This document shows positions 8,577 through 61,210 of a stretch of DNA of 64,000 nt, one piece after another. Location of the stretch: NCBI RefSeq assembly GCF_058153355.1, contig NZ_CM177019.1; one strand, written 5' to 3'. Each line of letters starts with the position of its first letter. The first letter of the stretch is position 1. A model generated the notes under the pieces. The model saw nothing but the letters and a program-made list of their open reading frames with translations, made no database searches and had not been told where the DNA came from. A program made the translations under genes and the position numbers.

Positions 8577-9422
8577 ATGGGAGATGGAAAGGGTAGTACG
8601 AGCGGAAAAAGCCAGAGCGGTGAACAGTGTGTAGTTTTAAAGGAGGGAAAAATTACTAATGATTTTAAAATAATGATGAGAGAGGCTCTGAAGGCGCTGA
8701 TGGCTGTATTGAAGAAAAGAGTAGAAGATCTTGGTGATAAATGGGGAGAGGAACAAAATCAGGAGTTTATAAATATATTTGGTATTGATGGAAATACTTA
8801 TATTAAATTAGAGTTCCCTTTCGGGGGGCGTAAGGTTATGTTTCCAGAGAATATAAAGGCAAGGGATTATATGAGAAATGGCGTTACTCGCCTGTATGAG
8901 ATATGTGGGGAATTATCTGTGGAAGGTGATTGTGTAGACGTTACTATTCATGACCATTTCCTCAAACGTGATGCCAATTGTAATCTTGTTCTTAATGACA
9001 AAGGGGGTAATGAATATGTTGACAAAGACGTAATCAGGCCCAAAACCGGTAACTTTGTGAATTGTACAGATAATGACGCTTATGCTGCCAATGTAACTTA
9101 CGATCAGATTTTGGGTGTAAAACCTGGAGGCTTTAAAAGTTTGGTAAGTATAACTATAGGACAAAGATTTATAGATAGGCCACCCACTGGGAAAAACTCT
9201 AAGGCATCGACACTCTGCCATGAACTATCTCACTTTATAAGGTACGGGGATTCATTTAAGTTTGGAGGCATGTGGACGGAAGATATGCCGGTAGATATAG
9301 AGTATAATACAGGTGACGAATATATTGTTCATGCCACTAAATTAAAAAATGATAAAAAATCAGAACTATTTCAGAATGCATATAATATCGAACGTTATTT
9401 CGAGATTCATGTACCATATTGA
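8577..9422 (+). CDS. hypothetical protein with HExxH zinc-metallopeptidase-like motif; candidate VgrG1 cargo effector
   Basis: ATG at 8577 preceded by AAGGAGG RBS; 281 aa; motif CHELSHF (HExxH) near the C-terminus followed by acidic NTGDEY; strongly AT-rich next to GC-rich vgrG; directly downstream of vgrG1. Confidence 0.6.
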   Translation: MGDGKGSTSGKSQSGEQCVVLKEGKITNDFKIMMREALKALMAVLKKRVEDLGDKWGEEQNQEFINIFGIDGNTYIKLEFPFGGRKVMFPENIKARDYMRNGVTRLYEICGELSVEGDCVDVTIHDHFLKRDANCNLVLNDKGGNEYVDKDVIRPKTGNFVNCTDNDAYAANVTYDQILGVKPGGFKSLVSITIGQRFIDRPPTGKNSKASTLCHELSHFIRYGDSFKFGGMWTEDMPVDIEYNTGDEYIVHATKLKNDKKSELFQNAYNIERYFEIHVPY

Positions 9423-9446
9423 TGCTTTTATTTGACGGGGGAGTAT

Positions 9447-10355
9447 ATGCTTGCTAGATGGATTGTTTTTATTGTTTTTTTTGCGCATCCAATATTTGCT
9501 TATGATATCTCTGGCGATTATGCTGTTCATTACAGATATGGGAAGTTATATTGGAATGGAGTAATGGACAAACTTGGTGTCTATCCTCGTGTAGAGCCGA
9601 CAAGGCTTAATTATTATGATTATTATGATGATCTTTCAGCCTATGCTGTTTTTCAATATTATACTATCAGTAAAAATGAGAGTCAGTATAATCAAGATAA
9701 AAATAAAATATATCTTCATCTTTCCGTGCATCAGAAAGAAAATATTGTAGCAGCTGCAGTGGTTTTATCGAATAAAAGCCAGGGATCTTATTTTGTTCAT
9801 CGACTAACTCTTCCTCTTGACGTTAACGGCGGGCCTTACTCTTCCTTGTGTAGTGGTGTGTTTATACCGATAATGGATAACATTCAGTTGGATTTTTTAA
9901 AAAAAACAAAATGTAGCTTTGGTGAATGGAAAAATAAATCCGTTTGGCACGAGATATTAACAGGGAAAGAGCTATCCTTTGATGTCATATTGAACGATTA
10001 TTATGCCTTTTTACCGGGCATTCATCGTTATAATATAGGAACGGTAGAATTTACAATAGTTAATCAAGAGTGGTTTACAGAACAATGTATATATGAGTAT
10101 TTTCTTTCTATTATGAACTGGCGGGCAGAAAGTGAGTGTACTAATCCTATAGATAAAATAAGATATGGTATAGAGGAGTGGCGGGTTTGGAGAATTTGTG
10201 GACCTTATCGTGGGTCAGGTCTATTTCAGGATTTTTTAGCACGCTTTGGCTATCATGGCGGTAATGATAATATATTCAAAATAAGATCAAATCAGGTTGT
10301 GGTTACTATTGATGGGGATAGGGCATCTCCTCCTTATTCGTTGAGGAATTATTAA
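9447..10355 (+). CDS. hypothetical secreted protein (N-terminal signal peptide); candidate immunity or partner of the upstream HExxH protein
   Basis: ATG at 9447 with GGGGGAG RBS; N-terminus MLARWIVFIVFFAHPIFA is a typical Sec signal peptide; Tyr/Trp-rich, AT-rich; starts 25 nt after the stop of the previous gene. Confidence 0.55.
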   Translation: MLARWIVFIVFFAHPIFAYDISGDYAVHYRYGKLYWNGVMDKLGVYPRVEPTRLNYYDYYDDLSAYAVFQYYTISKNESQYNQDKNKIYLHLSVHQKENIVAAAVVLSNKSQGSYFVHRLTLPLDVNGGPYSSLCSGVFIPIMDNIQLDFLKKTKCSFGEWKNKSVWHEILTGKELSFDVILNDYYAFLPGIHRYNIGTVEFTIVNQEWFTEQCIYEYFLSIMNWRAESECTNPIDKIRYGIEEWRVWRICGPYRGSGLFQDFLARFGYHGGNDNIFKIRSNQVVVTIDGDRASPPYSLRNY

Positions 10356-10510
10356 TGTTAACTTATTGTCATGGCTACAATTCGTTGGTTTTCCTGTTGA
10401 GATGATAATATATATGAGAAAAACAGGCAATGAACCAGTGAGAGAATATCAGAAGATACGGTCAACATCGGTTAATTACTTTTTCCTGTAGCGATACCAG
10501 GGAGGTCATC

Positions 10511-12712: not shown

Positions 12713-12721
12713 GGACTGAAC

Positions 12722-15211
12722 ATGAAAATCAGCCATCCCATCAGGGATAAAGAAGGCAAAGAGTTTCGCTCACTGGATGAGATAATGCGGCTTATTGACA
12801 AAGAAGCGCACGGAACCTGGCTGCTGGGTGGAAACGGGCTGTGGCACGGCGGGATACATATCAGTGACGTGTCTAATCCGTTATCAGCCCTGAAACCGGA
12901 TACCGCCGCTACCGGAGAACCGGTTCCTCTTCAGTTTATGGCCGATGGCACCATTGCGGCGTACCGGATAAATAATGATTACCTGAAAGGCCCCTACAAA
13001 GGGCAGCAACTCCGTTACAGCAGCACATTTGTTCTGGTGAAATCGCAGTGCCAGCCAGACCCGCAAAAAAAAGAAAGCTGGCTGGAATTTTACTGTCTCT
13101 ATATGCATCTGGCCCCGGTGAACGATTATCCCGGCTCCCCCTGCTATAAAGTTAAAACCGGGCATGGTGGCATATTGCTGCACCGATACATCCCGGGAAA
13201 GAACGGCCTTCCCGAGGGGCAGGAAAGCGGAGATCATGCCACGTACTGGATACCCCCGAAAATCAGCGGAAACAGGACACTTAATGCGGGAGATCGGTTT
13301 GTGTCATCCCGGACCGGACGTTTTTACGTGACCAATAACGGCCAGCCGGTCCTGACGACATTCGGACTGGTTCGCCTGCTGGAAGGCAATAAACCGGGGA
13401 ATGAGCAGTACTGGGTGACCCTGGATCCGGATCTGATGGAGTCAGATGGCGAAATACAGATGCTGATGCCTGAGTGGATGCAGAAGGCGAAGGCAAAAGG
13501 CATTTTTGACTCGGTACAGACGGTCGACGAAACGGAAGAGTGGAAAGTCAGTGCCGGAACACCGGTCGGATTTATGGGATGCGAGGATTATCCTGGCGAG
13601 GGAAGCGGTGAGATTGAGCGCGAGTGGTTCGTCCATCTGGAGGTTCTGAGTACAGACCCGAATATGCCAAAGTTCTTATCCAACCCGGCAGGCGTTAAGG
13701 GAGAAAAACGGACTGTTCTGGCACCAAAAGGGATAATTTTATACACCCGGCAGGCCGTTCCGGGACAGGAGGTATTTACCGCAACCGCAGCCACGCTGGG
13801 TGCTCAGCGCGTTCTTCCGCGGGAAGCCACGACACCAGTCACGGATGAATCGCAGCAGTGGTGGTTTAATATCACCGGAACCGGCTGGCTGCCACAAAAG
13901 GATGTTGAAGAGGCCGGACAGTATGATTTACTGAAGCTGGGTTTTCAACCGCTGGAGGAGAACAGCAGCGGTGACATGACGTACAGCCCGTACGAAGGAT
14001 GGGTGCCGGAAGCGTTTGACTCAATAAGCCGTGCCGCAGAACAGGGAGATGAGTGGCTGTATGAGCAGGTACCGCCCTTTTATCGTGAGCTGATGGCGGG
14101 TATGGATCAGGACGGTGATGGAAAAGTGACGGAGGAAGAGATCAGACAGGCGCTGATCGTGCGTGAACCACTGGTGAGAAATGTGGTGAATCATCTGATA
14201 GTTAAACACCACAGCGAATGGTACGGAGGGCGCTCGACAGGGCGGTGGGAAGGATTTTATAAAGATCTGGATACAGAGGAAGTGGCATACTGTGAGAAGT
14301 GGCAGCTGGATCTGGAGTGGATGAGCGGGGTATCTCCGTTTAATAGTGATGATGCTGTGTGGCATTTTCATCCGGTTGTGTTTTTGGACGCTATTAATTC
14401 CAAATCTGTGTGTGCTTGCAACAGAGATATAACATTAGATGAATTAAAAAAAGTTGCTCCTGCAGTAAGTGAAGGTCTTCTCAAAAGGTACCTCTACGAT
14501 ATAAATGCAGGGTTTATTCGGTTTGGTATGACCACTTGTAGAGAAAAAGCCCATTTTCTTGCTCAAATTATTCACGAGAGCGGTTATTTTAGATATACCA
14601 AAGAAATTAATGGTGAATCAGCTTCATATAGTCCGTGGTATGGCCGAGGCTTAATACAAGTTACAGGCGAAAGTAATTACACCGCCTATGGGGAATATAT
14701 CAATGAGGACGTAACATCTTCAGATTCCGCAAGAGATAAACTCATATCCTCCCCACATTGCGTATTATCTGCGTTTTGGTATTTCAATATATTCAAAAGA
14801 ATAAATGAAGATGCTAAAAATGATGATTTTAATAAAATTACAGTAGTGATTAATGGAGGGTATAATCATTATGATGAACGGTTGTCGATATTTAATAAAT
14901 TGGTTACCTCACTTGCTGCCGAGCATTTAAATCAGAAAGAAATGAACGACGATTTCTTGTTTGATGATAGTGACGTATATGATAATAAAGTATATGCTTT
15001 GGGATGGGGGATATGGCATGATCCTGATAGCTCCCGAAGAGGGACGATCAAGAGTAACGAAGAAGCATTAAAAGGTTATAGAAGGGCGAAAGAATTAATT
15101 GACCTGCATCCGTTTCCTCAGGAAGGGCGTGAGGGTGATAGAAAAGTATATGGAATAGAAAAAAGGAATATATCCACATTTGTAGAGAGACGAATAACTG
15201 AACTGGAGTAA
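12722..15211 (+). CDS. modular T6SS effector candidate: unknown N-terminal domain, EF-hand, C-terminal GH19 (chitinase/lysozyme-like) peptidoglycan hydrolase domain
   Basis: 829-aa ORF 9 nt after the vgrG2 stop; canonical EF-hand loop DQDGDGKVTEEE; C-terminal motifs AHFLAQIIHESG and YGRGLIQVTGESNY match GH19-family catalytic signatures; the C-terminal third is AT-rich compared with the N-terminal part. Confidence 0.75.
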   Translation: MKISHPIRDKEGKEFRSLDEIMRLIDKEAHGTWLLGGNGLWHGGIHISDVSNPLSALKPDTAATGEPVPLQFMADGTIAAYRINNDYLKGPYKGQQLRYSSTFVLVKSQCQPDPQKKESWLEFYCLYMHLAPVNDYPGSPCYKVKTGHGGILLHRYIPGKNGLPEGQESGDHATYWIPPKISGNRTLNAGDRFVSSRTGRFYVTNNGQPVLTTFGLVRLLEGNKPGNEQYWVTLDPDLMESDGEIQMLMPEWMQKAKAKGIFDSVQTVDETEEWKVSAGTPVGFMGCEDYPGEGSGEIEREWFVHLEVLSTDPNMPKFLSNPAGVKGEKRTVLAPKGIILYTRQAVPGQEVFTATAATLGAQRVLPREATTPVTDESQQWWFNITGTGWLPQKDVEEAGQYDLLKLGFQPLEENSSGDMTYSPYEGWVPEAFDSISRAAEQGDEWLYEQVPPFYRELMAGMDQDGDGKVTEEEIRQALIVREPLVRNVVNHLIVKHHSEWYGGRSTGRWEGFYKDLDTEEVAYCEKWQLDLEWMSGVSPFNSDDAVWHFHPVVFLDAINSKSVCACNRDITLDELKKVAPAVSEGLLKRYLYDINAGFIRFGMTTCREKAHFLAQIIHESGYFRYTKEINGESASYSPWYGRGLIQVTGESNYTAYGEYINEDVTSSDSARDKLISSPHCVLSAFWYFNIFKRINEDAKNDDFNKITVVINGGYNHYDERLSIFNKLVTSLAAEHLNQKEMNDDFLFDDSDVYDNKVYALGWGIWHDPDSSRRGTIKSNEEALKGYRRAKELIDLHPFPQEGREGDRKVYGIEKRNISTFVERRITELE

Positions 15212-15216
15212 TTGAT

Positions 15217-15627
15217 ATGAAAGTTAATTTATTGGTTTTACTGTTTTGTTTGGTGCCTTGTTGTTTATTGGCTAAACAACAAACAACGGTAGGCTGTTTT
15301 AGCGCTGGGAAAACAAATTTAAAGTTTGTTGAAATATCGTCTGGCGATATTTTTTTAGGTTATGTGATTTATGAGAAATCCTCAAAATTTATACCTCTTG
15401 CGTTTATAAATAAATTAGAAGTGACTTTCGATGACAGGCCTTCTGAATTTTCTTATGCATGGAGCGAGGTTGTAAATGGAAAAATTAATGGGTTGTATGT
15501 TGTTTCCACACAAGGTGCAAGATTTAATTTGTTTCATTATAAATCAATAAGTGGGAAAACAACTGAGTTTGAAGAAAATATTGAGGCATATAATGATGAT
15601 GGTACTGATTGCAAATGGACTGGATGA
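15217..15627 (+). CDS. putative periplasmic immunity protein for the GH19-type effector
   Basis: 136-aa ORF starting 6 nt after the effector stop; N-terminal signal peptide MKVNLLVLLFCLVPCCLLA; AT-rich like the toxin domain. Confidence 0.6.
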   Translation: MKVNLLVLLFCLVPCCLLAKQQTTVGCFSAGKTNLKFVEISSGDIFLGYVIYEKSSKFIPLAFINKLEVTFDDRPSEFSYAWSEVVNGKINGLYVVSTQGARFNLFHYKSISGKTTEFEENIEAYNDDGTDCKWTG

Positions 15628-15789
15628 CCATTGTGCAGTTTTTTATGAAATCGATGCTGTGTTATTAAAATAATAATGCGACTAGGTTGAATTTGTTTAT
15701 TATTAATTTAAATGTTTTATGATTTTAAGTTAGACATGAATAACTGACTGGAAAATTATTTTTGAGGGATATCGTACAGGCAGGCAGGG

Positions 15790-17070
15790 AAAGATCACGT
15801 AACGCTGCTTTTTTGTACTATACAATTCGCATTTTATGTTTGAAAATTGAGATATTCCTCATTACCTGAAGCTGTTTTTTATTGCTTATACATGATCAAA
15901 TACTCCTTACATAATTAAGGAGAACAAAATGGTACTTAAAAAATTGATGGAACATATTTCTATTATCCCCGATTACAGACAAGCCTGGAAAGTGGAACAT
16001 AAATTATCGGATATTCTACTGTTGACTATTTGCGCCGTTATTTCGGGTGCAGAAGGCTGGGAAGATATAGAGGATTTTGGGGAAACACATCTCGATTTTT
16101 TGAAGCAATATGGTGATTTTGAAAATGGTATTCCTGTTCACGATACCATTGTCAGAGTTGTATCCTGTATCAGTCCTGCAAAATTTCACGAGTGCTTTAT
16201 TAACTGGATGCGTGACTGCCATTCTTCAGATGATAAAGGCGTCATTGCAATTGATGGAAAAACGCTCCGGCACTCTTATGACAAGAGTCGCCGCAGGGGA
16301 GCGATTCATGTCATTAGTGCGTTCTCAACAATGCACAGTCTGGTCATCGGACAGATCAAGACGGATGAGAAATCCAATGAGATTACAGCTATCCCAGAAC
16401 TTCTTAACATGCTGGATATTAAAGGAAAAATCATCACAACTGATGCGATGGGTTGCCAGAAAGATATTGCAGAGAAGATACAAAAACAGGGAGGTGATTA
16501 TTTATTCGCGGTAAAAGGAAACCAGGGGCGGCTAAATAAAGCCTTTGAGGAAAAATTTCCGCTGAAAGAATTAAATAATCCAGATCATGACAGTTAAGCG
16601 ATTAGTGAAAAGAGTCACGGCAGAGAAAAAATCCGTCTTCATATTGTTTGCGATGTCCCTGATGAACTTATTGATTTCACGTTTGAATGGAAAGGTCTGA
16701 AGAAATTATGCGTGGCAGTCTCCTTTCGGTTAATAATAGCAGAACAAAAGAAAGAGCCAGAAATGACGGTCAGATATTATATCAGTTCTGCTGATTTAAC
16801 CGCAGAGAAGTTCGCCACAGCAATCCGAAACCACTGGCACGTGGAGAATAAGCTGCACTGGCGTCTGGACGTGGTAATGAATGAAGACGACTGCAAAATA
16901 AGAAGAGGAAACGCCGCAGAATTATTTTCAGGGATACGGCACATCGCTATTAATATTTTAACGAATGATAAGGTATTCAAGGCAGGGTTAAGACGTAAGA
17001 TGCGAAAAGCAGCCATGGACAGAAACTATCTCGCGTCAGTCCTTGCGGGGAGCGGGCTTTCGTAATCTTG
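15790..17070 (+). mobile_element. H-repeat (H-rpt) element, ISAs1 family, nearly full length
   Basis: Encodes the H-repeat-associated transposase-like protein; its 5' end, including about 140 bp upstream of the ATG, recurs at 19865-20290 and in degenerate form at 21975-22635; element boundaries are approximate. Confidence 0.75.
15929..17065 (+). pseudogene. ISAs1-family (H-repeat-associated) transposase, interrupted by a single in-frame TAA
   Basis: ORFs 15929-16597 and 16712-17065 are in the same frame (669 and 114 nt offsets are multiples of 3) and separated only by TAA at 16598-16600; combined length about 378 codons, the size of intact H-rpt proteins. Confidence 0.75.
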
Positions 17071-17075
17071 CCCTG

Positions 17076-19492
17076 GAGGTGATACCGGCGGACAGGACGT
17101 GGCGTCACGCGCCCCTGCCGAAGCCGAAGGTGGACGGCCCGCAGAGTGCCATCGTGACCGGGCCGAAGGGCGAGGAGATATTCTGCGACGAGCATGGCCG
17201 GGTACGGGTGAAGTTTCACTGGGACCGTTATCACGGGATGACGGAGGAGAGTTCATGCTGGATACGGGCGTCGCAGGCATGGGCGGGACCGGGGTTCGGC
17301 AATCTGGCGATACCGCGTGTGGGTCAGGAAGTGATAGTGGACTTTCTGAACGGCGACCCGGACCAGCCCATTGTGACGGGGCGGACATACCATGAGGACA
17401 ACCGTTCACCGGGGGATTTACCGGGCACGCGGACGCAGATGACCATCCGCTCGAAGACCTATAAAGGAAGCGGCTTTAATGAACTGCGTTTCGAGGATGC
17501 GACGGACAGTGAGCAGGTGTATATCCACGCGCAGAAGAACATGGACACGGAGGTGCTTAACGACCGGACGACGGACGTGAAGCATGACCATACGGAGACC
17601 ATCGGTAACGACCAGAAGATAAGGGTGGTGAAGGGGCAGACGGTTGAGGTCGGCACCAGAAAAGAAGGGGGTCACGACCAGAGTATCACGGTGGCGAACG
17701 ACCGGCGCATAACGGTACGTAATGACCAGACGCTGAAGGTGACGAATGACCGGACGGTGAGCGTGAGTCACGATGACGGCCTGTATGTCAGAAACGACCG
17801 TAAAGTGACGGTGGAAGGGAAGCAGGAGCATAAGACGACGGGGAACCATATCAGTCTGGTGGAGGGAACGCACAGTCTGGAGGTGAAGGGCGACCTGGCG
17901 AGGAAGATTACCGGTGCGCTGGGAATGAAGGTCCGGGATGAAATCGTACTGGAGAGTGGTGGTAAAATCACCCTGAAGTGGGTGGCTCGTTTGTGGTCGT
18001 TCATTCTGGTGGTGTGGATATTGTCGGACCGAAAATAAATCTGAATTGCGGGCGCAGTCCGGGGACGCCGATAAATACACTACAACCGGCAGTTATGGAC
18101 GCTCTGGCTGACGAGCAGTATGACAGAGGGAATGCTGGCGGCGGGAATGACGGAGAGCCTAGTGATGAGGATGAATCAGAAGGTGGAGAAGAAGACAAGG
18201 ACGATTCAGATGAACTGGTAATTCCTGTATACGCAAAATCTTGTCTGAAGGAGAAAGGCTGCACTGATGCTGGTACGACCATGGAGCCATCGAAACATTT
18301 TGGTGATATGGCTCTATTTGCCCAGCCAGTGGAGGATGACTGTTGCGGCTATGGTACACACTATCATGACGATGAAGTGGAGCAACTTGCGCAGTCAGCA
18401 AAAAAAACCTCAGGAGCGAACTCACTGACGGGGGAAATGACAGTTGCGTCAGCGGGTGTTGCGGTTCCACTAGCGGCGGAACAGTCTGCGGGAGTTTTAA
18501 CTCGCGTATGGGGAACATTAGGGGCATGGGGTGGAGAAGGTTTTTTAAGTGTATCAAAAACGGTGCCAGCCCTTGGTGTCCTAGTATCAGCACTATATCC
18601 AATACCTGCCGGTGAAGGTAGTGATAAAGTTCCTGGACGGGATGAACAGTGGCTCGAAAATGAGCTACGTCGTAAAGCGCAATCTGGAGAGACGGCAGCT
18701 ACGCGGGCGCGCTTTCTCTTTCAGCGGAATACTGCTGGTGAATTGAGGACATACGGATACCACACACCCGCAGGTTCGGAACTTGAAGGTGTTCGGGTAG
18801 CATTGATGGAGTGGAATAAGGAATTTTCCCGTTATGAATTTTCACCTGTGTCTGATTCGGGACCAAAAATATTTTGGACGCCTGCAAAGCCAGAAGGTTC
18901 AGAGCAGCCCATACACACCGGAACTCCTGTCGAACCAGTTGATCTACCTGATATTTATGTTAATCCGATACCCGATGAAAAAACAGATATCACCACGCCG
19001 CCTTCTCCAATGCCGGAGGAGCGAAATTTTAATGACTGGATACTTGTCTTTCCTGACGGTGCGGAATTAACACCAATATATGTGTATCTGAAAACTGCAA
19101 GGGATGTAGCGGGAACAGTAACAGGTAAGGGGGAGGTGTTAGCAGGTACAGGAAGATGGCTGTCGCAGGCGGGGAAAAGCTTAGGAGTGCCAATTCCACA
19201 ACAGGTCGCAAATAAACTTCGGAGTAAGTCATTTAACAATTTTGATGAATTCATGGCAGCTTTCTGGACTGCTGTAGGTGAATGTCCAGAACTATTGAGC
19301 CAATTTAATAAAGCTAACCAAACGTTGATAAAGCGTGGACGCGCACCTTATACTATATCAAGACAAAGAGTTGGGGGGCGAGGTACATTTGAAATTCATC
19401 ATATTGACGAAATCCAATATGGGGGAGAAGTCTATGATATTGATAATCTTAGAGTAAACACACCTAAAAACCACATACGATTGCATAAATAA
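17076..19492 (+). pseudogene. 5'-truncated, frameshifted vgrG (copy 3) fused to colicin E9-like HNH DNase toxin domain
   Basis: vgrG homology begins abruptly at about 17076, right after the H-rpt end, so the N-terminal half is missing; a 1-nt deletion near 17977 (ctgaagtgggtgg here, ctaaaggtgggtgg in vgrG2) splits the reading frame; C-terminal domain ...GRGTFEIHHIDEIQYGGEVYDIDNLRVNTPKNHIRLHK matches the colicin E9/E7 DNase HNH motif. Confidence 0.8.
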
Positions 19493-19505
19493 AAAGGAGG
19501 TAGTA

Positions 19506-19778
19506 ATGGAGTTTAAAAATAATCTAGAAGATTATACGGAAGATGAATTTATCGAACTTCTAAATAATTTTTTTGAACCACCTGAGGAATTGCATGGCGA
19601 TAAGTTGTCGAAGTTTATTGATGATCTTGTAAGTCATTTTATTAGAATCACTCAGCACCCAGATGGTAGTGATTTGATATTCTATCCATCTGAAGATAGA
19701 GAAGATAGTCCCCAAGGGATTGTTGATGAGTTAAAACGATGGCGAGCATCGCAGGGGCTAGGATGCTTTAAAATATAA
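19506..19778 (+). CDS. colicin DNase-type immunity protein (Im9/Im7-like)
   Basis: 90-aa ORF 14 nt after the DNase stop with GGAGG RBS; MEFKNNLEDYTEDEFIELL...HPDGSDLIFYP...DSPQGIV...RWRASQG aligns with the Im9 family (DYTE.EF, HP.GSDLI.YP, DSP.GIV). Confidence 0.85.
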   Translation: MEFKNNLEDYTEDEFIELLNNFFEPPEELHGDKLSKFIDDLVSHFIRITQHPDGSDLIFYPSEDREDSPQGIVDELKRWRASQGLGCFKI

Positions 19779-19864
19779 TGAAAATAAATACTCATCATAT
19801 TTTATTAAAATGATTGGTGTTTTTGTTATTAACCTTAAACCACTTCCTGAGAAGGTGGTACAGG

Positions 19865-20295
19865 GAAAGATCACCAGAAGTACACTTTTTGTACTAAATA
19901 ATTCGCATTTTATGTTCAATAATTGAGATATTCCTCATTACCTGAGGCTGTTTTTTATTGCTTATACATGATCAAATACTCCTTACATAATTAAGGAGAA
20001 CAAAATGGAACTTAAAAAATTGATGGAACATATTTCTGTTATTCCTGATTACAGACAAGCCTGGAAAGTGGAACATAAATTGTCGGATATTCTACTTTTG
20101 ACTATTTGCTCCGTCATTTCTGGTACAGAAGGCTGGCAAGATATAGAGAATTTTGGGGAAACACATCTCGATTTTTTGAAGCGACATGGTGATTTTTGAA
20201 ATGGTATTCCTGTTCACATACCATTGCCAGAGTTGTATCCTGTATCAGCCCTGCAAAATTTCATGAGTGCTTTATTAAAAGGAAACCAGGGGCGG
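19865..20295 (+). mobile_element. H-repeat 5' fragment (includes truncated 64-codon transposase ORF 20005-20199)
   Basis: Near-identical to 15790-16210 of the full H-rpt; the ORF ends prematurely (GDF then stop); joined through a short internal H-rpt piece (GNQGRL) to effector-derived sequence. Confidence 0.75.
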
Positions 20296-21465
20296 CTTAA
20301 TATCACCGGAACCGGCTGGCTGCCACAAAAGGATGTTGAAGAGGCCGGACAGTATGATTTACTGAAGCTGGGTTTTCAACCGCTGGAGGAGAACAGCAGC
20401 GGTGACATGACGTACAGCCCGTACGAAGGATGGGTGCCGGAAGCGTTTGACTCAATAAGCCGTGCCGCAGAACAGGGAGATGAGTGGCTGTATGAGCAGG
20501 TACCGCCCTTTTATCGTGAGCTGATGGCGGGTATGGATCAGGACGGTGATGGAAAAGTGACGGAGGAAGAGATCAGACAGGCGCTGACCGTGCGTGAACC
20601 ACTGGTGAGAAATGTGGTGAATCGTCTGACAGTCAGACACCACAGCGAGTGGTACGGCGGTCGCTCGACGGGACGCTGGGAAGGGTTTTATAAAGATCTG
20701 GACACCGAGGAAGTGGCATACTGTGAAAAGTGGCAGCTGGATCTGGAGTGGATGAGCGGGGTGTCTCCGTTTAATAGTGATGATGCTGTGTGGCATTTTC
20801 ATCCGGTTGTGTTTTTGAATGCTATTAATAATAGCAATTACCCAAAAACTCCTGTGAATAATGAACTTATTCCATTGGAATTTTTACGATTTTATAACGG
20901 AGATACCATTGATGATGCAGACTATGAAAATGCTGCAAGGACACTACAATGCGAAGTGGCTGCAATTAAAGCTGTTGCAAAAACTGAAACTGGTAGTTCC
21001 GGTAGCTATTTTAAATTTGAACAAGAAGATGATTACGTCCCCTCAATTCTTTTTGAAAGACATCATTTCCATCGATATACGAATGGTGTGTATGATTCTC
21101 AACCTGATATTTCCAACAGCCGTTCTGGCGGTTATGGAACACGATCGGAGCAATATCAAAAATTACTTCGTGCATATGTTTTAGATAAGCAAGCTGCGCT
21201 TAAATCGGCATCGTGGGGTAAATTTCAGATATTGGCTTCAAATTACCAAGCTACCGGGTACTCTTCGCCCGAAGAGTTTATAATATCGATTTCAGAGTTA
21301 GAGAAAAACCATCTGGCGGCATTCATTAACTTCATAAAATCTAATCCTGTATTATTGCGTGCTATTAGAGATAAAGATTGGCTTAACTTTGCTCTATGTT
21401 ATAATGGGCAAAGTCAGCGAGGATATGATGACAGAATAAGGGCTAATTATGAGCAATATAGATAG
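20224..21465 (+). CDS. orphan, N-terminally truncated effector module: conserved EF-hand middle region plus alternative C-terminal N-acetylmuramidase (DUF3380-like) domain
   Basis: Residues from NITGTGWLPQKDVEEAG through HPVVFL are about 95% identical at nucleotide level to 13865-14395 of the 829-aa effector, then diverge into a C-terminus with ILFERHHFHRYT, SWGKFQILASNY and LCYNGQSQ motifs typical of the DUF3380 muramidase family; the first 20 codons derive from H-rpt sequence in another frame. Confidence 0.7.
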   Translation: MPELYPVSALQNFMSALLKGNQGRLNITGTGWLPQKDVEEAGQYDLLKLGFQPLEENSSGDMTYSPYEGWVPEAFDSISRAAEQGDEWLYEQVPPFYRELMAGMDQDGDGKVTEEEIRQALTVREPLVRNVVNRLTVRHHSEWYGGRSTGRWEGFYKDLDTEEVAYCEKWQLDLEWMSGVSPFNSDDAVWHFHPVVFLNAINNSNYPKTPVNNELIPLEFLRFYNGDTIDDADYENAARTLQCEVAAIKAVAKTETGSSGSYFKFEQEDDYVPSILFERHHFHRYTNGVYDSQPDISNSRSGGYGTRSEQYQKLLRAYVLDKQAALKSASWGKFQILASNYQATGYSSPEEFIISISELEKNHLAAFINFIKSNPVLLRAIRDKDWLNFALCYNGQSQRGYDDRIRANYEQYR

Positions 21466-24199: not shown

Positions 24200-24415
24200 A
24201 TCTGCCTCGGATTCACGTTTATCGGTGTTGTTTTTTGGCTGGCAGCCAGAAGGGAGTCAGGCTGATATTTTGACAATAATTCGGGTTCGCGATTCTCGCC
24301 ATAACACCAAAGAATAATTTTTAGAGGTGATGAGTTGCTTAGTTACATAACGATTTTATGACGAAGGCATAACATGCTGCAGATCACATCAGGTGAACGC
24401 CGTAAGAAAATATCT

Positions 24416-24592
24416 TGTGATTCAGATCACAAAGATTCAACAAACTAACAAAACAAAAATGTGACATTACTCACATTTAAATGCCATTTTTAGCGAAAAT
24501 CGCCGTCTTGTTGCTTTTTTACACAAGTATTTTGTGATGCACATCACGTCAATTACCTCTCTACCCCCTATATTTATGTGATCTATATCACA
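24416..24592 (+). promoter_or_regulatory. mtlA promoter region with four TGTGA-N6-TCACA (CRP-type) palindromes
   Basis: Palindromes at 24416-24431 (TGTGAttcagaTCACA), 24460-24475 (TGTGAcattacTCACA), 24533-24548 (TGTGAtgcacaTCACg) and 24577-24592 (TGTGAtctataTCACA), upstream of mtlA. Confidence 0.7.
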
Positions 24593-24735
24593 CAAAAAGC
24601 CGTCGACTGGACAGTTAACCGATTCAGTGCCAGATTTCGCACTATCAACAAGGTCCGGCTACCTCTGCCGCCACATTAACAAAAAACCTCGGGCTTCCAG
24701 CCTGCGCGACAGCAAACATAAGAAGGGGTGTTTTT

Positions 24736-26649
24736 ATGTCATCCGATATTAAGATCAAAGTGCAAAGCTTTGGTCGTTTCCTCAGCAACATGGTGATGCC
24801 AAATATCGGCGCGTTTATCGCGTGGGGTATCATCACCGCGTTATTTATTCCAACAGGGTGGTTACCGAACGAAACGCTGGCGAAGCTGGTCGGGCCGATG
24901 ATCACTTATCTCCTGCCGCTGCTGATCGGTTATACCGGTGGTAAGCTGGTAGGCGGCGAACGTGGCGGCGTAGTCGGTGCCATCACCACCATGGGCGTTA
25001 TCGTCGGCGCAGATATGCCGATGTTCCTCGGTTCTATGATTGCAGGTCCGCTGGGCGGCTGGTGCATTAAGCACTTCGACCGCTGGGTAGACGGTAAGAT
25101 CAAATCCGGTTTTGAGATGCTGGTGAATAACTTCTCCGCTGGCATCATCGGGATGATCCTCGCTATTCTGGCGTTCCTCGGCATTGGCCCAATTGTTGAA
25201 GCCCTGTCCAAAATGCTGGCTGCGGGCGTTAACTTCATGGTTGTCCATGACATGCTGCCGCTGGCGTCTATCTTTGTTGAACCGGCGAAAATCCTGTTCC
25301 TCAACAACGCCATTAACCACGGTATCTTCTCGCCGCTGGGTATTCAGCAGTCCCATGAACTGGGTAAATCCATCTTCTTCCTGATTGAAGCTAACCCAGG
25401 TCCGGGTATGGGTGTTCTGCTGGCGTACATGTTCTTTGGCCGTGGTAGCGCTAAACAGTCTGCGGGCGGTGCGGCAATCATTCACTTCCTGGGGGGTATC
25501 CACGAAATCTACTTCCCGTATGTGCTGATGAATCCGCGTCTGATCCTGGCCGTTATCCTCGGTGGTATGACTGGCGTATTCACGCTGACTATCCTGGGCG
25601 GTGGTCTGGTTTCACCGGCATCTCCGGGTTCTATCCTTGCTGTACTGGCAATGACACCAAAAGGTGCTTACTTCGCTAACATCGCGGGTGTGTGTGCGGC
25701 GATGGCAGTCTCCTTCGTTGTCTCTGCTATTTTGCTGAAAACCAGCAAAGTGAAAGAAGAAGATGACATTGAAGCAGCAACGCGTCGTATGCAGGACATG
25801 AAAGCTGAATCTAAAGGTGCATCTCCGCTGTCTGCTGGCGATGTGACTAACGACCTGAGCCACGTCCGTAAAATCATCGTTGCCTGTGATGCCGGTATGG
25901 GTTCCAGTGCGATGGGCGCAGGTGTGCTGCGTAAGAAAATTCAGGATGCAGGTCTGTCGCAGATTTCTGTTACTAACAGCGCGATCAACAACCTGCCGCC
26001 AGATGTGGACCTGGTCATCACTCACCGTGACCTGACCGAACGCGCTATGCGCCAGGTTCCGCAGGCACAGCATATTTCGCTGACCAACTTCCTCGACAGC
26101 GGCCTGTACACCAGCCTGACCGAACGTCTGGTTGCTGCCCAGCGCCATACTGAAAACGAAGTAAAAGTGAAAGACAGTCTGAAAGACAGCTTTGACGATT
26201 CCAGTGCTAACCTGTTCAAACTGGGCGCGGAGAACATCTTCCTTGGTCGCAAAGCGGCAACCAAAGAAGAAGCGATTCGTTTTGCTGGCGAGCAGCTGGT
26301 GAAAGGCGGTTACGTTGAGCCGGAATACGTTCAGGCGATGCTGGATCGTGAAAAACTGACCCCGACCTATCTGGGTGAGTCTATCGCGGTGCCGCACGGT
26401 ACGGTTGAAGCGAAAGACCGCGTACTGAAAACGGGCGTGGTGTTCTGCCAGTACCCGGAAGGCGTGCGCTTCGGTGAAGAAGAAGATGACATTGCCCGCC
26501 TGGTGATTGGTATTGCTGCCCGTAACAACGAGCACATTCAGGTGATCACCAGCCTGACCAATGCACTGGATGATGAGTCCGTCATCGAGCGTCTGGCGCA
26601 CACCACCAGCGTGGATGAAGTGCTGGAACTGCTGGCAGGTCGTAAGTAA
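24736..26649 (+). CDS. mtlA: PTS mannitol-specific EIICBA component
   Basis: 637-aa ORF; membrane EIIC domain followed by EIIB and EIIA domains; precedes mtlD and mtlR. Confidence 0.95.
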   Translation: MSSDIKIKVQSFGRFLSNMVMPNIGAFIAWGIITALFIPTGWLPNETLAKLVGPMITYLLPLLIGYTGGKLVGGERGGVVGAITTMGVIVGADMPMFLGSMIAGPLGGWCIKHFDRWVDGKIKSGFEMLVNNFSAGIIGMILAILAFLGIGPIVEALSKMLAAGVNFMVVHDMLPLASIFVEPAKILFLNNAINHGIFSPLGIQQSHELGKSIFFLIEANPGPGMGVLLAYMFFGRGSAKQSAGGAAIIHFLGGIHEIYFPYVLMNPRLILAVILGGMTGVFTLTILGGGLVSPASPGSILAVLAMTPKGAYFANIAGVCAAMAVSFVVSAILLKTSKVKEEDDIEAATRRMQDMKAESKGASPLSAGDVTNDLSHVRKIIVACDAGMGSSAMGAGVLRKKIQDAGLSQISVTNSAINNLPPDVDLVITHRDLTERAMRQVPQAQHISLTNFLDSGLYTSLTERLVAAQRHTENEVKVKDSLKDSFDDSSANLFKLGAENIFLGRKAATKEEAIRFAGEQLVKGGYVEPEYVQAMLDREKLTPTYLGESIAVPHGTVEAKDRVLKTGVVFCQYPEGVRFGEEEDDIARLVIGIAARNNEHIQVITSLTNALDDESVIERLAHTTSVDEVLELLAGRK

Positions 26650-26990
<341 letters not shown>

Positions 26991-27012
26991 AACATTGATG
27001 AAGGTTAATACT

Positions 27013-28161
27013 ATGAAAGCATTACATTTTGGCGCAGGTAATATCGGTCGTGGCTTTATCGGTAAACTGCTGGCAGACGCAGGTATCCAACTGACGTTTG
27101 CCGATGTCAATCAGGTGGTACTTGATGCCCTGAATGCCCGTCATAGCTATCAGGTTCATGTGGTCGGTGAAACCGAGCAGGTAGATACCGTTTCTGGCGT
27201 CAATGCTGTCAGCAGCATTGGTGATGATGTCGTTGAGCTGATTGCTCAGGTTGATTTAGTCACTACCGCCGTGGGCCCGGTTGTGCTGGAACGTATTGCT
27301 CCGGCAATCGCCAAAGGGCTGGTGAAACGTAAAGAACAAGGTAATGAATCCCCGCTGAACATTATCGCCTGTGAAAACATGGTACGCGGCACCACGCAGC
27401 TGAAAGGCCATGTGATGAACGCCCTGCCAGAAGACGCCAAAGCGTGGGTAGAAGAACACGTTGGCTTTGTGGACTCTGCCGTTGACCGCATCGTACCGCC
27501 TTCCGCTTCGGCAACGAACGATCCGCTGGAAGTGACAGTCGAAACCTTCAGCGAATGGATTGTCGATAAAACTCAGTTCAAAGGTGCACTGCCGAACATC
27601 CCAGGCATGGAGTTAACCGACAACCTGATGGCATTTGTTGAGCGTAAACTCTTCACCCTGAATACAGGTCATGCTATAACCGCGTACCTCGGAAAACTGG
27701 CGGGTCATCAGACCATTCGTGACGCGATTCTCGACGCGAAAATCCGCGCGGTGGTAAAAGGTGCGATGGAAGAAAGCGGCGCTGTACTGATTAAGCGTTA
27801 CGGTTTTGACGCGGACAAACATGCGGCGTACATCCAGAAAATCCTTGGTCGTTTTGAAAACCCGTATCTGAAAGACGATGTAGAGCGCGTAGGCCGTCAG
27901 CCGCTGCGTAAACTGAGTGCTGGCGACCGTCTGATCAAGCCACTGCTCGGAACGCTGGAATATGGTCTGCCACATAAAAACCTGATTGAAGGTATTGCCG
28001 CTGCAATGCACTTCCGCAGTGAAGATGATCCGCAGGCTCAGGAACTGGCAGCACTGATTGCCGACAAAGGCCCGCAAGCCGCACTGGCGCAGATTTCTGG
28101 CCTTGATGCTAACAGCGAGGTTGTATCCGAGGCGGTAACCGCTTATAAAGCAATGCAATAA
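27013..28161 (+). CDS. mtlD: mannitol-1-phosphate 5-dehydrogenase
   Basis: Starts [15 protein letters not shown] (Rossmann motif) at ATG 27013; the longer track ORF begins inside the REP cluster and is not the real start. Confidence 0.95.
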
Positions 28162-28748
28162 TGGTGGACCAGGCGCAGGACTCCCTGCGCCCGAATAACA
28201 GATTGTCAGATATGCAGGCAACAATGGAACAAACCCAGGCCTTTGAAAACCGTGTGCTTGAGCGTCTGAATGCTGGCAAAACCGTGCGAAGCTTTCTGAT
28301 TACCGCCGTCGAGCTTTTGACCGAGGCGGTAAATCTTCTGGTGCTTCAGGTATTCCGCAAAGACGATTACGCGGTGAAGTATGCTGTAGAACCGTTACTC
28401 GACGGCGATGGCCCGCTGGGCGATCTTTCTGTGCGTTTAAAACTCATTTACGGGTTGGGTGTCATTAACCGCCATGAATATGAAGATGCGGAACTGCTGA
28501 TGGCATTGCGTGAAGAACTAAATCACGACGGCAATGAGTACGCCTTTACCGACGATGAAATTCTTGGCCCCTTTGGTGAGCTGCACTGTGTGGCGGCGTT
28601 ACCACCGCCGCCACAGTTTGAACCCGCAGACTCCAGTTTGTATGCAATGCAAATTCAGCGTTACCAACAGGCTGTGCGATCAACAATGGTCCTTTCACTG
28701 ACAGAGCTGATTTCCAAAATCAGCTTAAAAAAAGCCTTTCAAAAGTAA
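28161..28748 (+). CDS. mtlR: mannitol operon repressor MtlR
   Basis: 195-aa ORF immediately after mtlD. Confidence 0.9.
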   Translation: MVDQAQDSLRPNNRLSDMQATMEQTQAFENRVLERLNAGKTVRSFLITAVELLTEAVNLLVLQVFRKDDYAVKYAVEPLLDGDGPLGDLSVRLKLIYGLGVINRHEYEDAELLMALREELNHDGNEYAFTDDEILGPFGELHCVAALPPPPQFEPADSSLYAMQIQRYQQAVRSTMVLSLTELISKISLKKAFQK

Positions 28749-30187: not shown

Positions 30188-30871
30188 ATGAGCATCAAAA
30201 AAGCACTATTAAGCATGTTGATAACATTGCCACTCTGGGTATTGACTGGGTGTGACTATATTGAGAAAGCGAATCTGATCGACGATCTTGCCAAACAGCA
30301 AGAATTGCAAAAAAGTAAAATAGAGATTCTTGAAAAACAACAAGAACAATATAAAAGAAAAATAGAAATTATTGAAAATCAACAAATTAATATTGCAAAC
30401 ACCACTAAAGTGCTGGCGGGTGTAGTAAAGACGGTCAAAGACAAACAGAACGAATTTGTCTTCACCGAATTTAACCCAGCACAAACAAAATACTTCATTT
30501 TAAACAATGGCTCGGTTGGTTTGGCAGGCCGGGTGCTGTCTATTGATGCAGTTGAAAATGGTAGCGTTATTCGTATTTCGCTGGTCAACCTATTAAGCGT
30601 TCCCGTATCAAATATTGGCTTTCAAGCCACATGGGGCAGTGAAAGACCCACCGATACCAAAGCGCTGTCGAAGTGGCAACAATTACTTTTCAACACCACC
30701 ATGAACTCCACCCTGCAATTAATGCCTGGTCAATGGCAAGACATTAACCTGACATTAAAAGGCGTTTCACCTAATAACCTGAAGTATCTGAAATTGTCCA
30801 TCAATATGGCCAATCTCCAGTTCGACACTGTTCAACCTGCTGAAACTCAGCAGCGGAAAAACAAAAAATAA
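30188..30871 (+). CDS. putative lipoprotein
   Basis: 227 aa; signal peptide with lipobox LTGC (Cys22); coiled-coil-like Q/E/K-rich region; immediately upstream of the adhesin gene. Confidence 0.7.
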   Translation: MSIKKALLSMLITLPLWVLTGCDYIEKANLIDDLAKQQELQKSKIEILEKQQEQYKRKIEIIENQQINIANTTKVLAGVVKTVKDKQNEFVFTEFNPAQTKYFILNNGSVGLAGRVLSIDAVENGSVIRISLVNLLSVPVSNIGFQATWGSERPTDTKALSKWQQLLFNTTMNSTLQLMPGQWQDINLTLKGVSPNNLKYLKLSINMANLQFDTVQPAETQQRKNKK

Positions 30872-30914
30872 ATGCAGCTTCTGCGCTTATATCAAGGAAT
30901 AGAGAACATCAATA

Positions 30915-50173: not shown

Positions 50174-51377
<1,204 letters not shown>

Positions 51378-61201: not shown

Positions 61202-61210
61202 AAGAGTAAT

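What the first reader, a model, noticed from the sequence alone, without database searches (positions are those of the whole stretch)
24380..24600. Cluster of four near-perfect TGTGA-N6-TCACA palindromes upstream of mtlA
Four CRP-type palindromes within about 180 bp, three of them perfect in both half-sites, is an unusual density and fits the known multi-CRP-site architecture of the mannitol promoter. It is a useful internal control for regulatory-site detection.
Basis: partly seen in the sequence, partly recalled or inferred. Interest (0 to 1): 0.3.

Follow-up and report, generated by a model that had tools for sequence, protein, structure and literature searches.

The report
Known CRP-site array of mannitol operon
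The four palindromes are real and are four of the five well-studied cAMP-CRP binding sites in front of the E. coli mannitol operon, whose exact spacing both switches the operon on and lets the DNA-blind repressor MtlR dock, so this is a good positive control and not a discovery.

Summary
Observation confirmed. Window 24416-24592 holds three perfect TGTGA-N6-TCACA palindromes, the only three in the 64 kb (0.05 expected by chance), plus a one-mismatch copy at 24533-24548. They lie 144-320 bp upstream of mtlA (24736-26649) in the yibI-mtlA spacer, which is 98% identical to E. coli K-12.

These are CRP2-CRP5 of the published five-site mtlADR operator.

With the start site placed at 24643, all five centres fall on the published -262.5, -219.5, -175.5, -102.5 and -58.5 (spacings 43/44/73/44). 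A -35 TGGACA, a TGn-CAGATT -10 and a Cra box then sit where they should.

A 2026 paper shows that CRP pairs 43-46 bp apart anchor MtlR, which has no DNA-binding domain.

My own checks agree:
- A PWM ranks the five sites 1st, 2nd, 3rd, 5th and 9th in the window.
- The 43/44/73/44 geometry is identical in nine of eleven other Enterobacterales loci, and the 44/73/44 part in all eleven, while spacers and linkers diverge.
- In a truncated scan of 100,044 species' genomes, 14 of 15 perfect pairs 44 bp apart lie directly upstream of mtlA.

Verdict: already known, low interest.

The parts
24373..24388 (.). CRP1: weak site CATGCTGCAGATCACA (perfect right half, 7 of 10 consensus bases), centre -262.5.
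   Evidence: PWM 11.2 bits, rank 9 in the window and the local best. It lies 43 bp from CRP2, as published, and the repeat finder puts it in family D2. The right half TCACA is kept at the same 43-bp distance in 9 of 11 other Enterobacterales loci. It is reported as poorly occupied and dispensable in K-12.
24416..24431 (.). CRP2: perfect palindrome TGTGATTCAGATCACA, centre -219.5.
   Evidence: Exact match, PWM 12.5 bits, half-sites 100% conserved across 12 loci. Reported as essential for activation in K-12.
24460..24475 (.). CRP3: perfect palindrome TGTGACATTACTCACA, centre -175.5, 44 bp from CRP2.
   Evidence: Exact match, PWM 19.4 bits, half-sites 97-100% conserved. The CRP2-CRP3 pair recruits MtlR in K-12 EMSA.
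24533..24548 (.). CRP4: TGTGATGCACATCACG (1 mismatch), centre -102.5, 73 bp from CRP3.
   Evidence: 16.9 bits. The 73-bp gap is invariant in all 11 other Enterobacterales loci. Reported as essential for activation.
24577..24592 (.). CRP5: perfect palindrome TGTGATCTATATCACA, centre -58.5, 44 bp from CRP4. The promoter-proximal, class-I-like site.
   Evidence: Exact match. It has the highest PWM score in the window, 21.2 bits. Reported as essential, and the CRP4-CRP5 pair recruits MtlR.
24510..24526 (.). Conserved T-tract block TGTTGCTTTTTTACACA inside the 73-bp CRP3-CRP4 gap (-133 to -117). Role unknown; candidates are an intrinsic bend or a site for Fis or another nucleoid protein.
   Evidence: TTTTT at 24515-24519 is kept in at least 12 of 13 aligned sequences, and the surrounding TGTTnnTTTTTTTACAC is kept in 12 of 13. 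No published assignment was found in the papers I read.
24608..24613 (+). -35 hexamer TGGACA of the mtlA promoter (-35 to -30).
   Evidence: 5 of 6 match to TTGACA. CTGGACAG is kept in at least 12 of 13 sequences. The position follows from the TSS inferred from the published site centres.
24615..24628 (-). Cra (FruR) operator ACTGAATCGGTTAA, lying between -35 and -10 (-28 to -15).
   Evidence: Exact match to RSTGAAWCSNTHHW, one of 3 in the window against 0.59 expected. Cra is reported to bind and repress mtlA by ChIP-exo and in the refs cited.
24628..24636 (+). Extended -10 region TGcCAGATT (-15 to -7). The hexamer is weak (3 of 6), as expected for an activator-dependent promoter.
   Evidence: GTGC and AGATT are kept in at least 12 of 13 sequences. 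The spacer to the -35 is 17 bp. The generic promoter scan does not call it because the hexamer is too weak.
24643..24735 (+). Inferred transcription start (24643) and 93-nt 5' UTR with conserved blocks and the Shine-Dalgarno AAGGGGT (24723-24729).
   Evidence: TSS = CRP5 centre + 58.5. UTR mean pairwise identity is 0.77 across genera. The TSS was not measured here.
24736..26649 (+). mtlA, the mannitol PTS enzyme IICBA (637 aa). Its dephosphorylated IIB domain sequesters MtlR.
   Evidence: NF011663, 1324 bits. Cys384 and His554 are present. Two substitutions against K-12.
27013..28161 (+). mtlD, mannitol-1-phosphate 5-dehydrogenase.
   Evidence: NF002648, 875 bits over residues 46-427 of the longer ORF. 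The start codon ATGAAAGCA is at 27013.
28161..28748 (+). mtlR, a repressor without a DNA-binding domain that docks on paired CRP dimers.
   Evidence: MltR family model, 257 bits. Two substitutions against K-12 (T8S, Q105H). The reported CRP-contact residues R167 and L178 are kept.

Best explanation
This is the operator-promoter of the E. coli mannitol operon mtlADR, a class III CRP-dependent promoter with five cAMP-CRP sites centred at -262.5, -219.5, -175.5, -102.5 and -58.5. The array does two jobs.

(1) Activation. When cAMP is high, CRP dimers occupy CRP2-CRP5. CRP5 at -58.5 acts like a class I site and helps RNA polymerase bind a weak promoter (-35 TGGACA, -10 TGcCAGATT). The upstream sites are also required, probably for architectural reasons.

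(2) Repression. Two CRP dimers 43-46 bp apart (CRP2-CRP3 and CRP4-CRP5; CRP1-CRP2 as a weaker alternative) present a geometry that an MtlR dimer bridges. MtlR has no DNA-binding domain and uses CRP as its anchor. It masks the CRP surfaces that contact RNA polymerase.

Mannitol transport dephosphorylates the IIB domain of MtlA, which pulls MtlR to the membrane and relieves repression. Dephosphorylated HPr (glucose present) competes MtlR off MtlA and restores repression. Cra adds a conventional operator between -35 and -10.

Shown here: the sites, their scores, their exact geometry, their conservation, the promoter elements and the intact mtlA/mtlD/mtlR genes. Taken from the literature for K-12: CRP binding, which sites are required, the MtlR supershift and its spacing dependence, and the S1-mapped start site on which the published site coordinates rest. 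Inferred: the start-site position in this window (24643), and that this strain behaves like K-12, since every consensus half-site base and every spacing is identical.
For: - Three perfect and one near-perfect CRP palindromes against 0.05 expected.
- PWM ranks 1, 2, 3, 5 and 9 in 64 kb. Five sites in 230 bp against at most 2 in 300 shuffles.
- The region is 98% identical to the K-12 yibI-mtlA spacer, with 0 of 50 half-site positions changed.
- The site centres reproduce the published coordinates exactly with one free parameter, the TSS. That same TSS puts TGGACA at -35..-30 and CAGATT at -12..-7.
- Nine of eleven other Enterobacterales loci (Pseudescherichia, Enterobacter, Superficieibacter, Citrobacter, Pluralibacter and others) keep 43/44/73/44 exactly. 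The other two (Enterobacter cloacae, Klebsiella sp.) keep 44/73/44.
- Half-sites are 91% identical across these loci, against 42% for N6 spacers and 51% for linkers. Between CRP1 and the start site the only indels are a 7-column gap in one locus (Klebsiella sp. L040, just after CRP1) and a 1-column gap in two loci (L040, L035) next to the -10.
- In a truncated genome scan, 14 of 15 perfect pairs at 44 bp sit directly upstream of an mtlA homologue. No pair at another spacing does, except a third site in Actinobacillus that also has a 44-bp pair.
- Literature: five CRP sites and the spacing-dependent MtlR supershift; the MtlR R167/L178 interface, both residues kept here; the yibI-mtlA spacer as the second most abundant clone in CRP genomic SELEX; Cra ChIP-exo at mtlA and an exact Cra box here.
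Against: - No binding or expression data exist for this particular strain. Everything functional is transferred from K-12.
- The MtlR-on-CRP mechanism rests on one recent paper (2026). An earlier study from the same laboratory failed to detect an MtlR-CRP interaction.
- The PWM was built from sites recalled from memory and gives the perfect CRP2 only 12.5 bits, so its absolute scores are rough.
- The loci used for conservation were selected for having a perfect pair, which inflates conservation of two of the five sites.
- The generic sigma-70 scan does not call the promoter. The TSS is inferred and not measured.
- CRP1 is reported as hardly occupied.
Confidence: 0.92

Rival explanations
1. The sites are only CRP activator sites. 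MtlR represses through some other, still unidentified DNA-binding partner, and the 44-bp spacing is incidental or serves CRP-CRP cooperativity or DNA wrapping alone.
For: An earlier study could not detect a direct MtlR-CRP interaction, and a plasmid carrying the four-site malK promoter did not titrate repression. The AlphaFold-based interface is a model.
Against: The 2026 EMSAs show an MtlR supershift only when two CRP dimers are bound 43-46 bp apart. Changing malK from 34 to 44 bp, or mtl CRP3-4 from 73 to 44 bp, creates binding. The R167E and L178A mutants lose both supershift and repression. The malK result is explained by its 34-bp spacing. In my scan, pairs with 44-bp spacing are almost exclusive to mtlA.
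Confidence: 0.07
2. The distal sites (CRP1-CRP3) mainly serve the divergent yibIH genes (24199 leftwards) and not mtlA, so the array is two adjacent regulatory regions.
For: The spacer is shared by divergent genes, and the SELEX authors note that both yibI and mtlA lie downstream of the CRP-binding sequence. CRP1 lies 181 bp from the yibI start codon.
Against: Chromosomal mutation of CRP2 abolishes mtl expression and growth on mannitol, and mutation of CRP3 reduces it. No sigma-70-like promoter is called on the minus strand between 24200 and 24400. Sequence conservation across genera stops just upstream of CRP1, whereas the distance of the distal sites to the mtlA promoter is invariant. A secondary effect on yibIH is not excluded.
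Confidence: 0.05
3. The palindromes are chance matches, or copies of a repeated or mobile element or of a recent local duplication, with no protein-binding role.
For: CRP2 and CRP4 share an extended 5' flank, 83% identical over 23 nt, which could hint at an old duplication of a two-site unit.
Against: Chance expectation is 0.05 for the window, and shuffles never give more than 2 sites per 230 bp. The linkers between sites share no similarity. Half-sites are conserved at 91% while N6 spacers and linkers have diverged to 42-51% across genera. That is the signature of selection on a binding motif and not of a recent repeat.
Confidence: 0.01

Closest known systems
E. coli K-12 mtlADR operator-promoter (five cAMP-CRP sites; Ramseier & Saier 1995; Lee et al., Nucleic Acids Res 2026, PMC13421365)
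   Same: Same locus, same flanking genes, 98% identity. All 50 consensus half-site bases, all four spacings (43/44/73/44), the -35, the -10 and the Cra box are identical.
   Different: There are 18 substitutions in 541 bp. Six of them fall in the N6 spacers of CRP1, CRP3, CRP4 and CRP5, and none in half-sites. MtlR has T8S and Q105H, MtlA has A473E and E476V. The mtlA-mtlD spacer is 134 bp longer.
malEp-malKp divergent promoter region (three to four adjacent CRP sites)
   Same: A multi-CRP class III architecture in a sugar-uptake operon. It served as the comparison probe in the 2026 study.
   Different: Adjacent sites are 34 bp apart and do not recruit MtlR unless lengthened to 44 bp. Activation there also needs MalT (established knowledge, not tested here).
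CytR-CRP repression complex at deoP2, cdd and similar promoters
   Same: A repressor sits between two DNA-bound CRP dimers and turns the activator into part of a repression complex (anti-activation), as discussed.
   Different: CytR is a LacI-family protein that also binds DNA itself, and the tandem CRP sites are about 52-53 bp apart (established knowledge). MtlR has no DNA-binding domain and reads only the 43-46 bp geometry.
mtl operators of other Gammaproteobacteria (Salmonella, Vibrio cholerae; here also Actinobacillus and Orbaceae)
   Same: Adjacent CRP sites 43-44 bp apart upstream of mtlA. In my scan, Actinobacillus sp. has perfect sites spaced 40 and 44 bp, and an Orbaceae genome has one 44-bp pair.
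   Different: There are fewer sites (2-3), they lie closer to the start codon, and there is no 73-bp gap. In some Vibrio lineages MtlR no longer fits the CRP pair.

Membership tests
cAMP-CRP binding site | 22-bp two-fold symmetric site with core TGTGA-N6-TCACA | tested here: met
   Three perfect cores, one with 1 mismatch and one with 7 of 10 bases.
cAMP-CRP binding site | Weight-matrix score in the range of validated sites and above the genomic background | tested here: met
   Scores are 21.2, 19.4, 16.9, 12.5 and 11.2 bits against a training-set median of 13.8. Ranks are 1, 2, 3, 5 and 9 in 64 kb. Only 6% of shuffled windows reach 16.9 anywhere. The matrix was recalled from memory, so it is approximate.
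cAMP-CRP binding site | Half-sites conserved in orthologous regions while the N6 spacer is free to vary | tested here: met
   Half-sites are 91% identical against 42% for N6 across 12 loci. The caveat is that loci were selected for one perfect pair.
cAMP-CRP binding site | Physical binding of cAMP-CRP | not testable with these tools
   Reported for K-12 by EMSA and genomic SELEX. The half-sites here are identical to K-12.
Class III CRP-dependent promoter | Two or more CRP sites upstream of a weak sigma-70 promoter, with the proximal site at a class I or class II position | tested here: met
   The proximal site is at -58.5. The -10 matches 3 of 6 and is preceded by a TGn, and the -35 matches 5 of 6. 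The TSS is inferred from published coordinates. The classification is stated.
MtlR-recruiting CRP pair (mtl operator type) | Adjacent CRP sites 43-46 bp centre to centre | tested here: met
   Spacings are 43 (CRP1-2), 44 (CRP2-3) and 44 (CRP4-5). CRP3-4 is 73 bp, which does not recruit.
MtlR-recruiting CRP pair (mtl operator type) | A cognate MtlR encoded in the operon with the CRP-contact residues R167 and L178 | tested here: met
   mtlR lies at 28161-28748, matches the MltR family at 257 bits, and has both residues.
MtlR-recruiting CRP pair (mtl operator type) | Formation of the ternary MtlR-CRP-DNA complex | not testable with these tools
   Shown for K-12, Salmonella and V. cholerae by EMSA. 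Not shown for this strain.
Cra (FruR) operator | Match to RSTGAAWCSNTHHW overlapping core promoter elements | tested here: met
   Exact match at 24615-24628 on the minus strand, -28 to -15. In-vivo Cra binding at mtlA is reported.

The most novel reading that the evidence does not exclude
The operator may hold more than the published parts list. Three features go beyond what the papers I read assign. The 73-bp CRP3-CRP4 gap is invariant in length in all 11 other Enterobacterales loci I examined. It contains a conserved T7 tract (TGTTnnTTTTTTTACAC, -133 to -117). The supposedly dispensable CRP1 half-site is kept at exactly 43 bp in 9 of the 11. Together these could mark an undescribed architectural element, either an intrinsic bend or a site for a further protein, that phases the two CRP pairs onto one face of the helix (73 bp is 6.95 turns). 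That would explain why the far-upstream sites are indispensable, a question the 2026 paper leaves open.
Probability: 0.25. Interest if true: 0.35.

Novelty: already known. Interest (0 to 1): 0.12.

Why it matters
As a discovery it does not matter, because the mtl operator has been dissected since 1995 and its logic was largely solved in 2026. It matters as a calibration point. A sequence-only reader found a real, experimentally validated regulatory array at the right coordinates and named it correctly. A crude PWM, a shuffle test and a phylogenetic footprint all recover it. The case also shows what such a reader misses: the weak fifth site, and the fact that the information lies in the spacing (43-46 bp pairs as a docking geometry for a repressor with no DNA-binding domain) and not in the density of sites. 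The small additions made here are cheap leads for anyone studying how the distal sites activate transcription. They are the invariant 43/44/73/44 geometry across Enterobacterales, the near-exclusive association of 44-bp perfect pairs with mtlA, and a conserved T-tract in the long gap.

Tried and rejected
- Rfam at gathering thresholds over the whole window gave no match, so there is no known RNA element in the mtlA leader or elsewhere.
- The generic sigma-70 promoter scan did not call the mtlA promoter. It called only an irrelevant minus-strand match inside the mtlA start and a weak terminator-like hairpin at 24614-24600 that overlaps the -35. I treat both as noise.
- I looked for a fifth site at TGCAGATCACATCAGG (24378-24393). 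That would be 38 bp from CRP2 and scores poorly, so I rejected it in favour of 24373-24388, which is the local PWM maximum and matches the published 43-bp spacing and the '7 of 10' count.
- I considered FNR (TTGAT-N4-ATCAA) and CRP-S (TGCGA-N6-TCGCA) readings. The half-sites are canonical TGTGA/TCACA, so both were rejected by inspection.
- By eye, I tried to read the conserved T-tract as a Fis site (GNNYRNNWNNYRNNC), a CytR octamer, an IHF site or a divergent -10. None fits consistently across the aligned genera, so it stays unexplained.
- The supplementary primer tables of the 2026 paper, which would have pinned the TSS coordinate directly, are not held. Figge et al. 1994 is not held either.
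- The recurrent 57-58 bp perfect pair in Enterobacter, Superficieibacter, Yersinia and Serratia was checked in one locus, Superficieibacter. There it lies between an MFS transporter and a KduD-like dehydrogenase and is unrelated to mtl.

Full report
**1. The observation**

An exact search for TGTGA-N6-TCACA finds three matches in the whole 64-kb window: 24416-24431, 24460-24475 and 24577-24592. Dinucleotide shuffles expect 0.05, and none of 100 shuffles reaches three. Allowing mismatches adds 24533-24548 (TGTGATGCACATCACG, one mismatch); every other match in the window has one or two mismatches and lies elsewhere. The four sites span 177 bp.

**2. Where we are**

- The 637-aa ORF at 24736-26649 is the mannitol PTS permease MtlA (1324 bits).
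- It is followed by mtlD (start 27013) and mtlR (28161-28748).
- Upstream, on the other strand, lie a 120-aa ORF and an HlyD-like ORF, which are yibI and yibH in K-12.
- The spacer 24200-24740 is found in 5402 of 5426 complete E. coli genomes and is 98% identical to K-12 MG1655.
- The closest genome (99.6%) has the same gene order, from the Rhs element through mtlADR to lldPRD.

So this is the E. coli yibI-mtlA intergenic region.

**3. What is known about it**

The library holds a July 2026 Nucleic Acids Research paper (PMC13421365) that summarises and extends the older work.

- The mtl operator has five CRP sites (Ramseier & Saier 1995), centred at -262.5, -219.5, -175.5, -102.5 and -58.5 from an S1-mapped start site. 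The spacings are therefore 43, 44, 73 and 44 bp.
- CRP is essential for activation, and Cra and Fis repress.
- The 73-bp pair does not recruit it, and neither does malK (34 bp). Resetting either of those to 44 bp creates binding.
- CRP1 has 7 of 10 consensus bases, is poorly occupied and is dispensable. CRP2, CRP4 and CRP5 are essential, and CRP3 contributes.
- MtlR R167 and L178 contact CRP.
- Dephosphorylated MtlA sequesters MtlR, and HPr competes for it.
- Independently, the yibI-mtlA spacer was the second most abundant clone in CRP genomic SELEX (PMC3105977), and Cra ChIP-exo places Cra on the mtlA promoter (PMC5888115).

**4. Mapping that knowledge onto the window**

The four palindromes have centres 24423.5, 24467.5, 24540.5 and 24584.5, giving spacings of 44, 73 and 44 bp. 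They are therefore CRP2-CRP5. CRP1 should lie 43 bp upstream of CRP2, at 24373-24388. The sequence there is CATGCTGCAGATCACA: a perfect right half and two of five in the left half, so 7 of 10 as published.

Setting the start site at 24643 (CRP5 centre + 58.5) makes all five centres equal the published values. Without any further adjustment it also puts TGGACA at -35..-30, TGc-CAGATT at -15..-7 with a 17-bp spacer, and the start codon at +94.

An exact match to the Cra consensus RSTGAAWCSNTHHW lies on the minus strand at 24615-24628, between the -35 and the -10 (three matches in the window against 0.59 expected).

The generic promoter scan misses this promoter because its -10 is only 3 of 6. 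That fits an activator-dependent promoter.

**5. Independent quantitative checks**

I built a 22-bp weight matrix from 24 classical CRP sites, excluding mtl. The sites were recalled from memory, so the matrix is approximate.

| Site | Score (bits) | Rank in the window |
|---|---|---|
| CRP5 | 21.2 | 1 |
| CRP3 | 19.4 | 2 |
| CRP4 | 16.9 | 3 |
| CRP2 | 12.5 | 5 |
| CRP1 | 11.2 | 9 (local maximum) |

In 300 shuffles of the window, the largest number of sites of at least 11 bits within 230 bp was 2 (in 19 shuffles), against 5 observed. The repeat finder, which knows nothing about CRP, recovers the same family, including CRP1 at a 43-bp offset. It finds no similarity between the linkers.

**6. Related sequences**

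I scanned one genome for each of 100,044 species for two perfect CRP palindromes 30-60 bp apart.

- Of 15 pairs at 44 bp, 14 lie directly upstream of an mtlA homologue. The exception is a Bacteroidetes MAG.
- No pair at any other spacing lies next to mtlA, apart from a third site in Actinobacillus, which also has a 44-bp pair.
- One locus of the recurrent 57-58 bp pair seen in Enterobacter, Superficieibacter, Yersinia and Serratia was checked. In Superficieibacter it belongs to an MFS transporter/KduD-like locus.

I then ran the PWM on 480 bp upstream of each mtlA.

- Nine of eleven other Enterobacterales loci give exactly 43/44/73/44. These are Pseudescherichia vulneris, three unnamed Enterobacter species, an Enterobacter MAG, Superficieibacter electus, a Citrobacter species, Pluralibacter gergoviae and an Enterobacterales-like MAG.
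- The remaining two, Enterobacter cloacae and a Klebsiella species, give 44/73/44 with no CRP1 above threshold.
- Actinobacillus has three sites at 40 and 44 bp, and an Orbaceae genome has two sites at 44 bp.

In the alignment, the stretch from CRP1 to the start site has only two indels. One is a 7-column gap in the Klebsiella locus just after CRP1. The other is a 1-column gap in two loci (L040 and L035) next to the -10. Mean pairwise identity is 0.91 for half-sites, 0.42 for N6 spacers, 0.51 for linkers, 0.71 for -50..-1 and 0.77 for the 5' UTR. The caveat is that the loci were selected for one perfect pair, which inflates two of the five sites. The other sites and all the spacings were not selected.

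**7. This strain against K-12**

- None of the 50 consensus half-site positions differs.
- Six of the 30 N6 positions differ, against five of 140 linker positions (Fisher p = 0.005).
- MtlR differs at T8S and Q105H and keeps R167 and L178. MtlA differs at A473E and E476V and keeps Cys384 and His554.

Nothing suggests altered regulation.

**8. Mechanism**

The best-supported account is the published one. cAMP-CRP on CRP2-CRP5 activates a weak promoter, and CRP5 works like a class I site. Pairs 44 bp apart are bridged by an MtlR dimer that blocks the surfaces CRP uses to contact RNA polymerase. Mannitol transport removes MtlR to the membrane through dephospho-MtlA, and glucose returns it through dephospho-HPr. 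Cra blocks the core promoter. The anatomy and the conservation are shown here. Binding and regulation are transferred from K-12.

Rivals:
- MtlR acts through another partner. This was the older view, and it is contradicted by the spacing-swap and interface-mutant experiments.
- The distal sites serve yibIH. This is not excluded as a side effect, but CRP2 is essential for mtl and no leftward promoter is apparent.
- Chance or a repeat element. Excluded.

**9. What is not fully explained**

- The 73-bp gap is invariant in length and holds a conserved T7 tract (TGTTnnTTTTTTTACAC, 24510-24526).
- Short blocks AAATA (24408-24412) and ACAAA (24440-24444) are conserved in the linkers.
- CRP1, reported as dispensable, keeps its TCACA half at 43 bp in most genera.
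- 73 bp is 6.95 helical turns and 44 bp is 4.19, so the two pairs are in phase.

This fits the paper's untested suggestion of a phase-dependent architectural role for the distal sites. It is only a lead.

**10. Verdict**

The finding is real, correctly interpreted and already known. It is a good positive control. Interest is low (0.12) and the novelty category is 'already known'.

Noticed in passing
window 35678-36971 and 50194-51485: Two copies (90-97% identical over the repeat segments) of a roughly 1.3-kb IS110-family element. Each encodes a 326-aa 'IS110 family RNA-guided transposase' (NF033542, about 254 bits) preceded by about 200 nt of non-coding leader. That leader is where IS621-type elements carry their bridge RNA (the bridge-RNA point is from memory). 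No Rfam family matched.
   Followed up: partly
window 26650-27012 (mtlA-mtlD intergenic): The spacer is 363 bp against 229 bp in K-12. A 135-bp unit containing a REP/BIME-like palindrome (GCCGGATAAGGCGTTTACGCCGCATCCGGC) is tandemly duplicated (26719-26810 and 26854-26945, 96% identical). A third, weaker copy lies at 36957-37048, next to the first IS110 element.
   Followed up: partly
window 24373-24592 against K-12: Substitutions between this strain and K-12 are concentrated in the N6 spacers of the CRP sites (6 of 30 positions) compared with the linkers (5 of 140) and the half-sites (0 of 50); Fisher p = 0.005. Across genera the N6 positions are also the least conserved class (42% identity).
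   Followed up: partly
window 24510-24526, 24440-24444 and 24408-24412: Conserved non-CRP blocks inside the operator: a T7 tract within TGTTnnTTTTTTTACAC in the 73-bp gap, ACAAA between CRP2 and CRP3, and AAATA just 5' of CRP2. The papers I read assign them no function.
   Followed up: partly
window 24643-24735 (mtlA 5' UTR): The 93-nt leader is 77% identical across Enterobacterales, with conserved blocks GGCT...CTGCCG, TTAAC and CTCGGGC. The predicted fold contains small hairpins at CGGC/GCCG and at GGGCTT/AGCCTG (-23.6 kcal/mol for 108 nt, no shuffle control run). There is no Rfam match.
   Followed up: no
window 6148-21465: An Rhs region with three copies of a 300-nt core-end repeat (7219, 11552 and 17076; 98-100% identical) and several orphan toxin/immunity-like ORFs. 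This resembles the rhs/yibA/yibG region of the closest E. coli genome.
   Followed up: no
window 30188-35630: A 227-aa ORF followed by a 1571-aa YadA-like trimeric autotransporter adhesin with internal repeats of about 250 nt. They lie between yibL and lldP and are absent from K-12 at this position, but present in the closest E. coli genome.
   Followed up: partly
window 59514-62960: Four CRP-like PWM hits of 10.8-14.3 bits (the best is 61790-61811, TTTTGTGAGAGGTTTCAGACTT) fall in a run of minus-strand ORFs. I did not identify these genes, which may be the LPS-core (waa) cluster. The hits are probably compositional and were not examined.
   Followed up: no
L019, L024, L027, L041, L086 (Enterobacter, Superficieibacter, Yersinia, Serratia): A recurrent pair of perfect CRP palindromes 57-58 bp apart. 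In Superficieibacter it lies between a divergent MFS sugar-acid transporter and a KduD-like dehydrogenase. It is another conserved two-CRP-site architecture, unrelated to mtl.
   Followed up: partly
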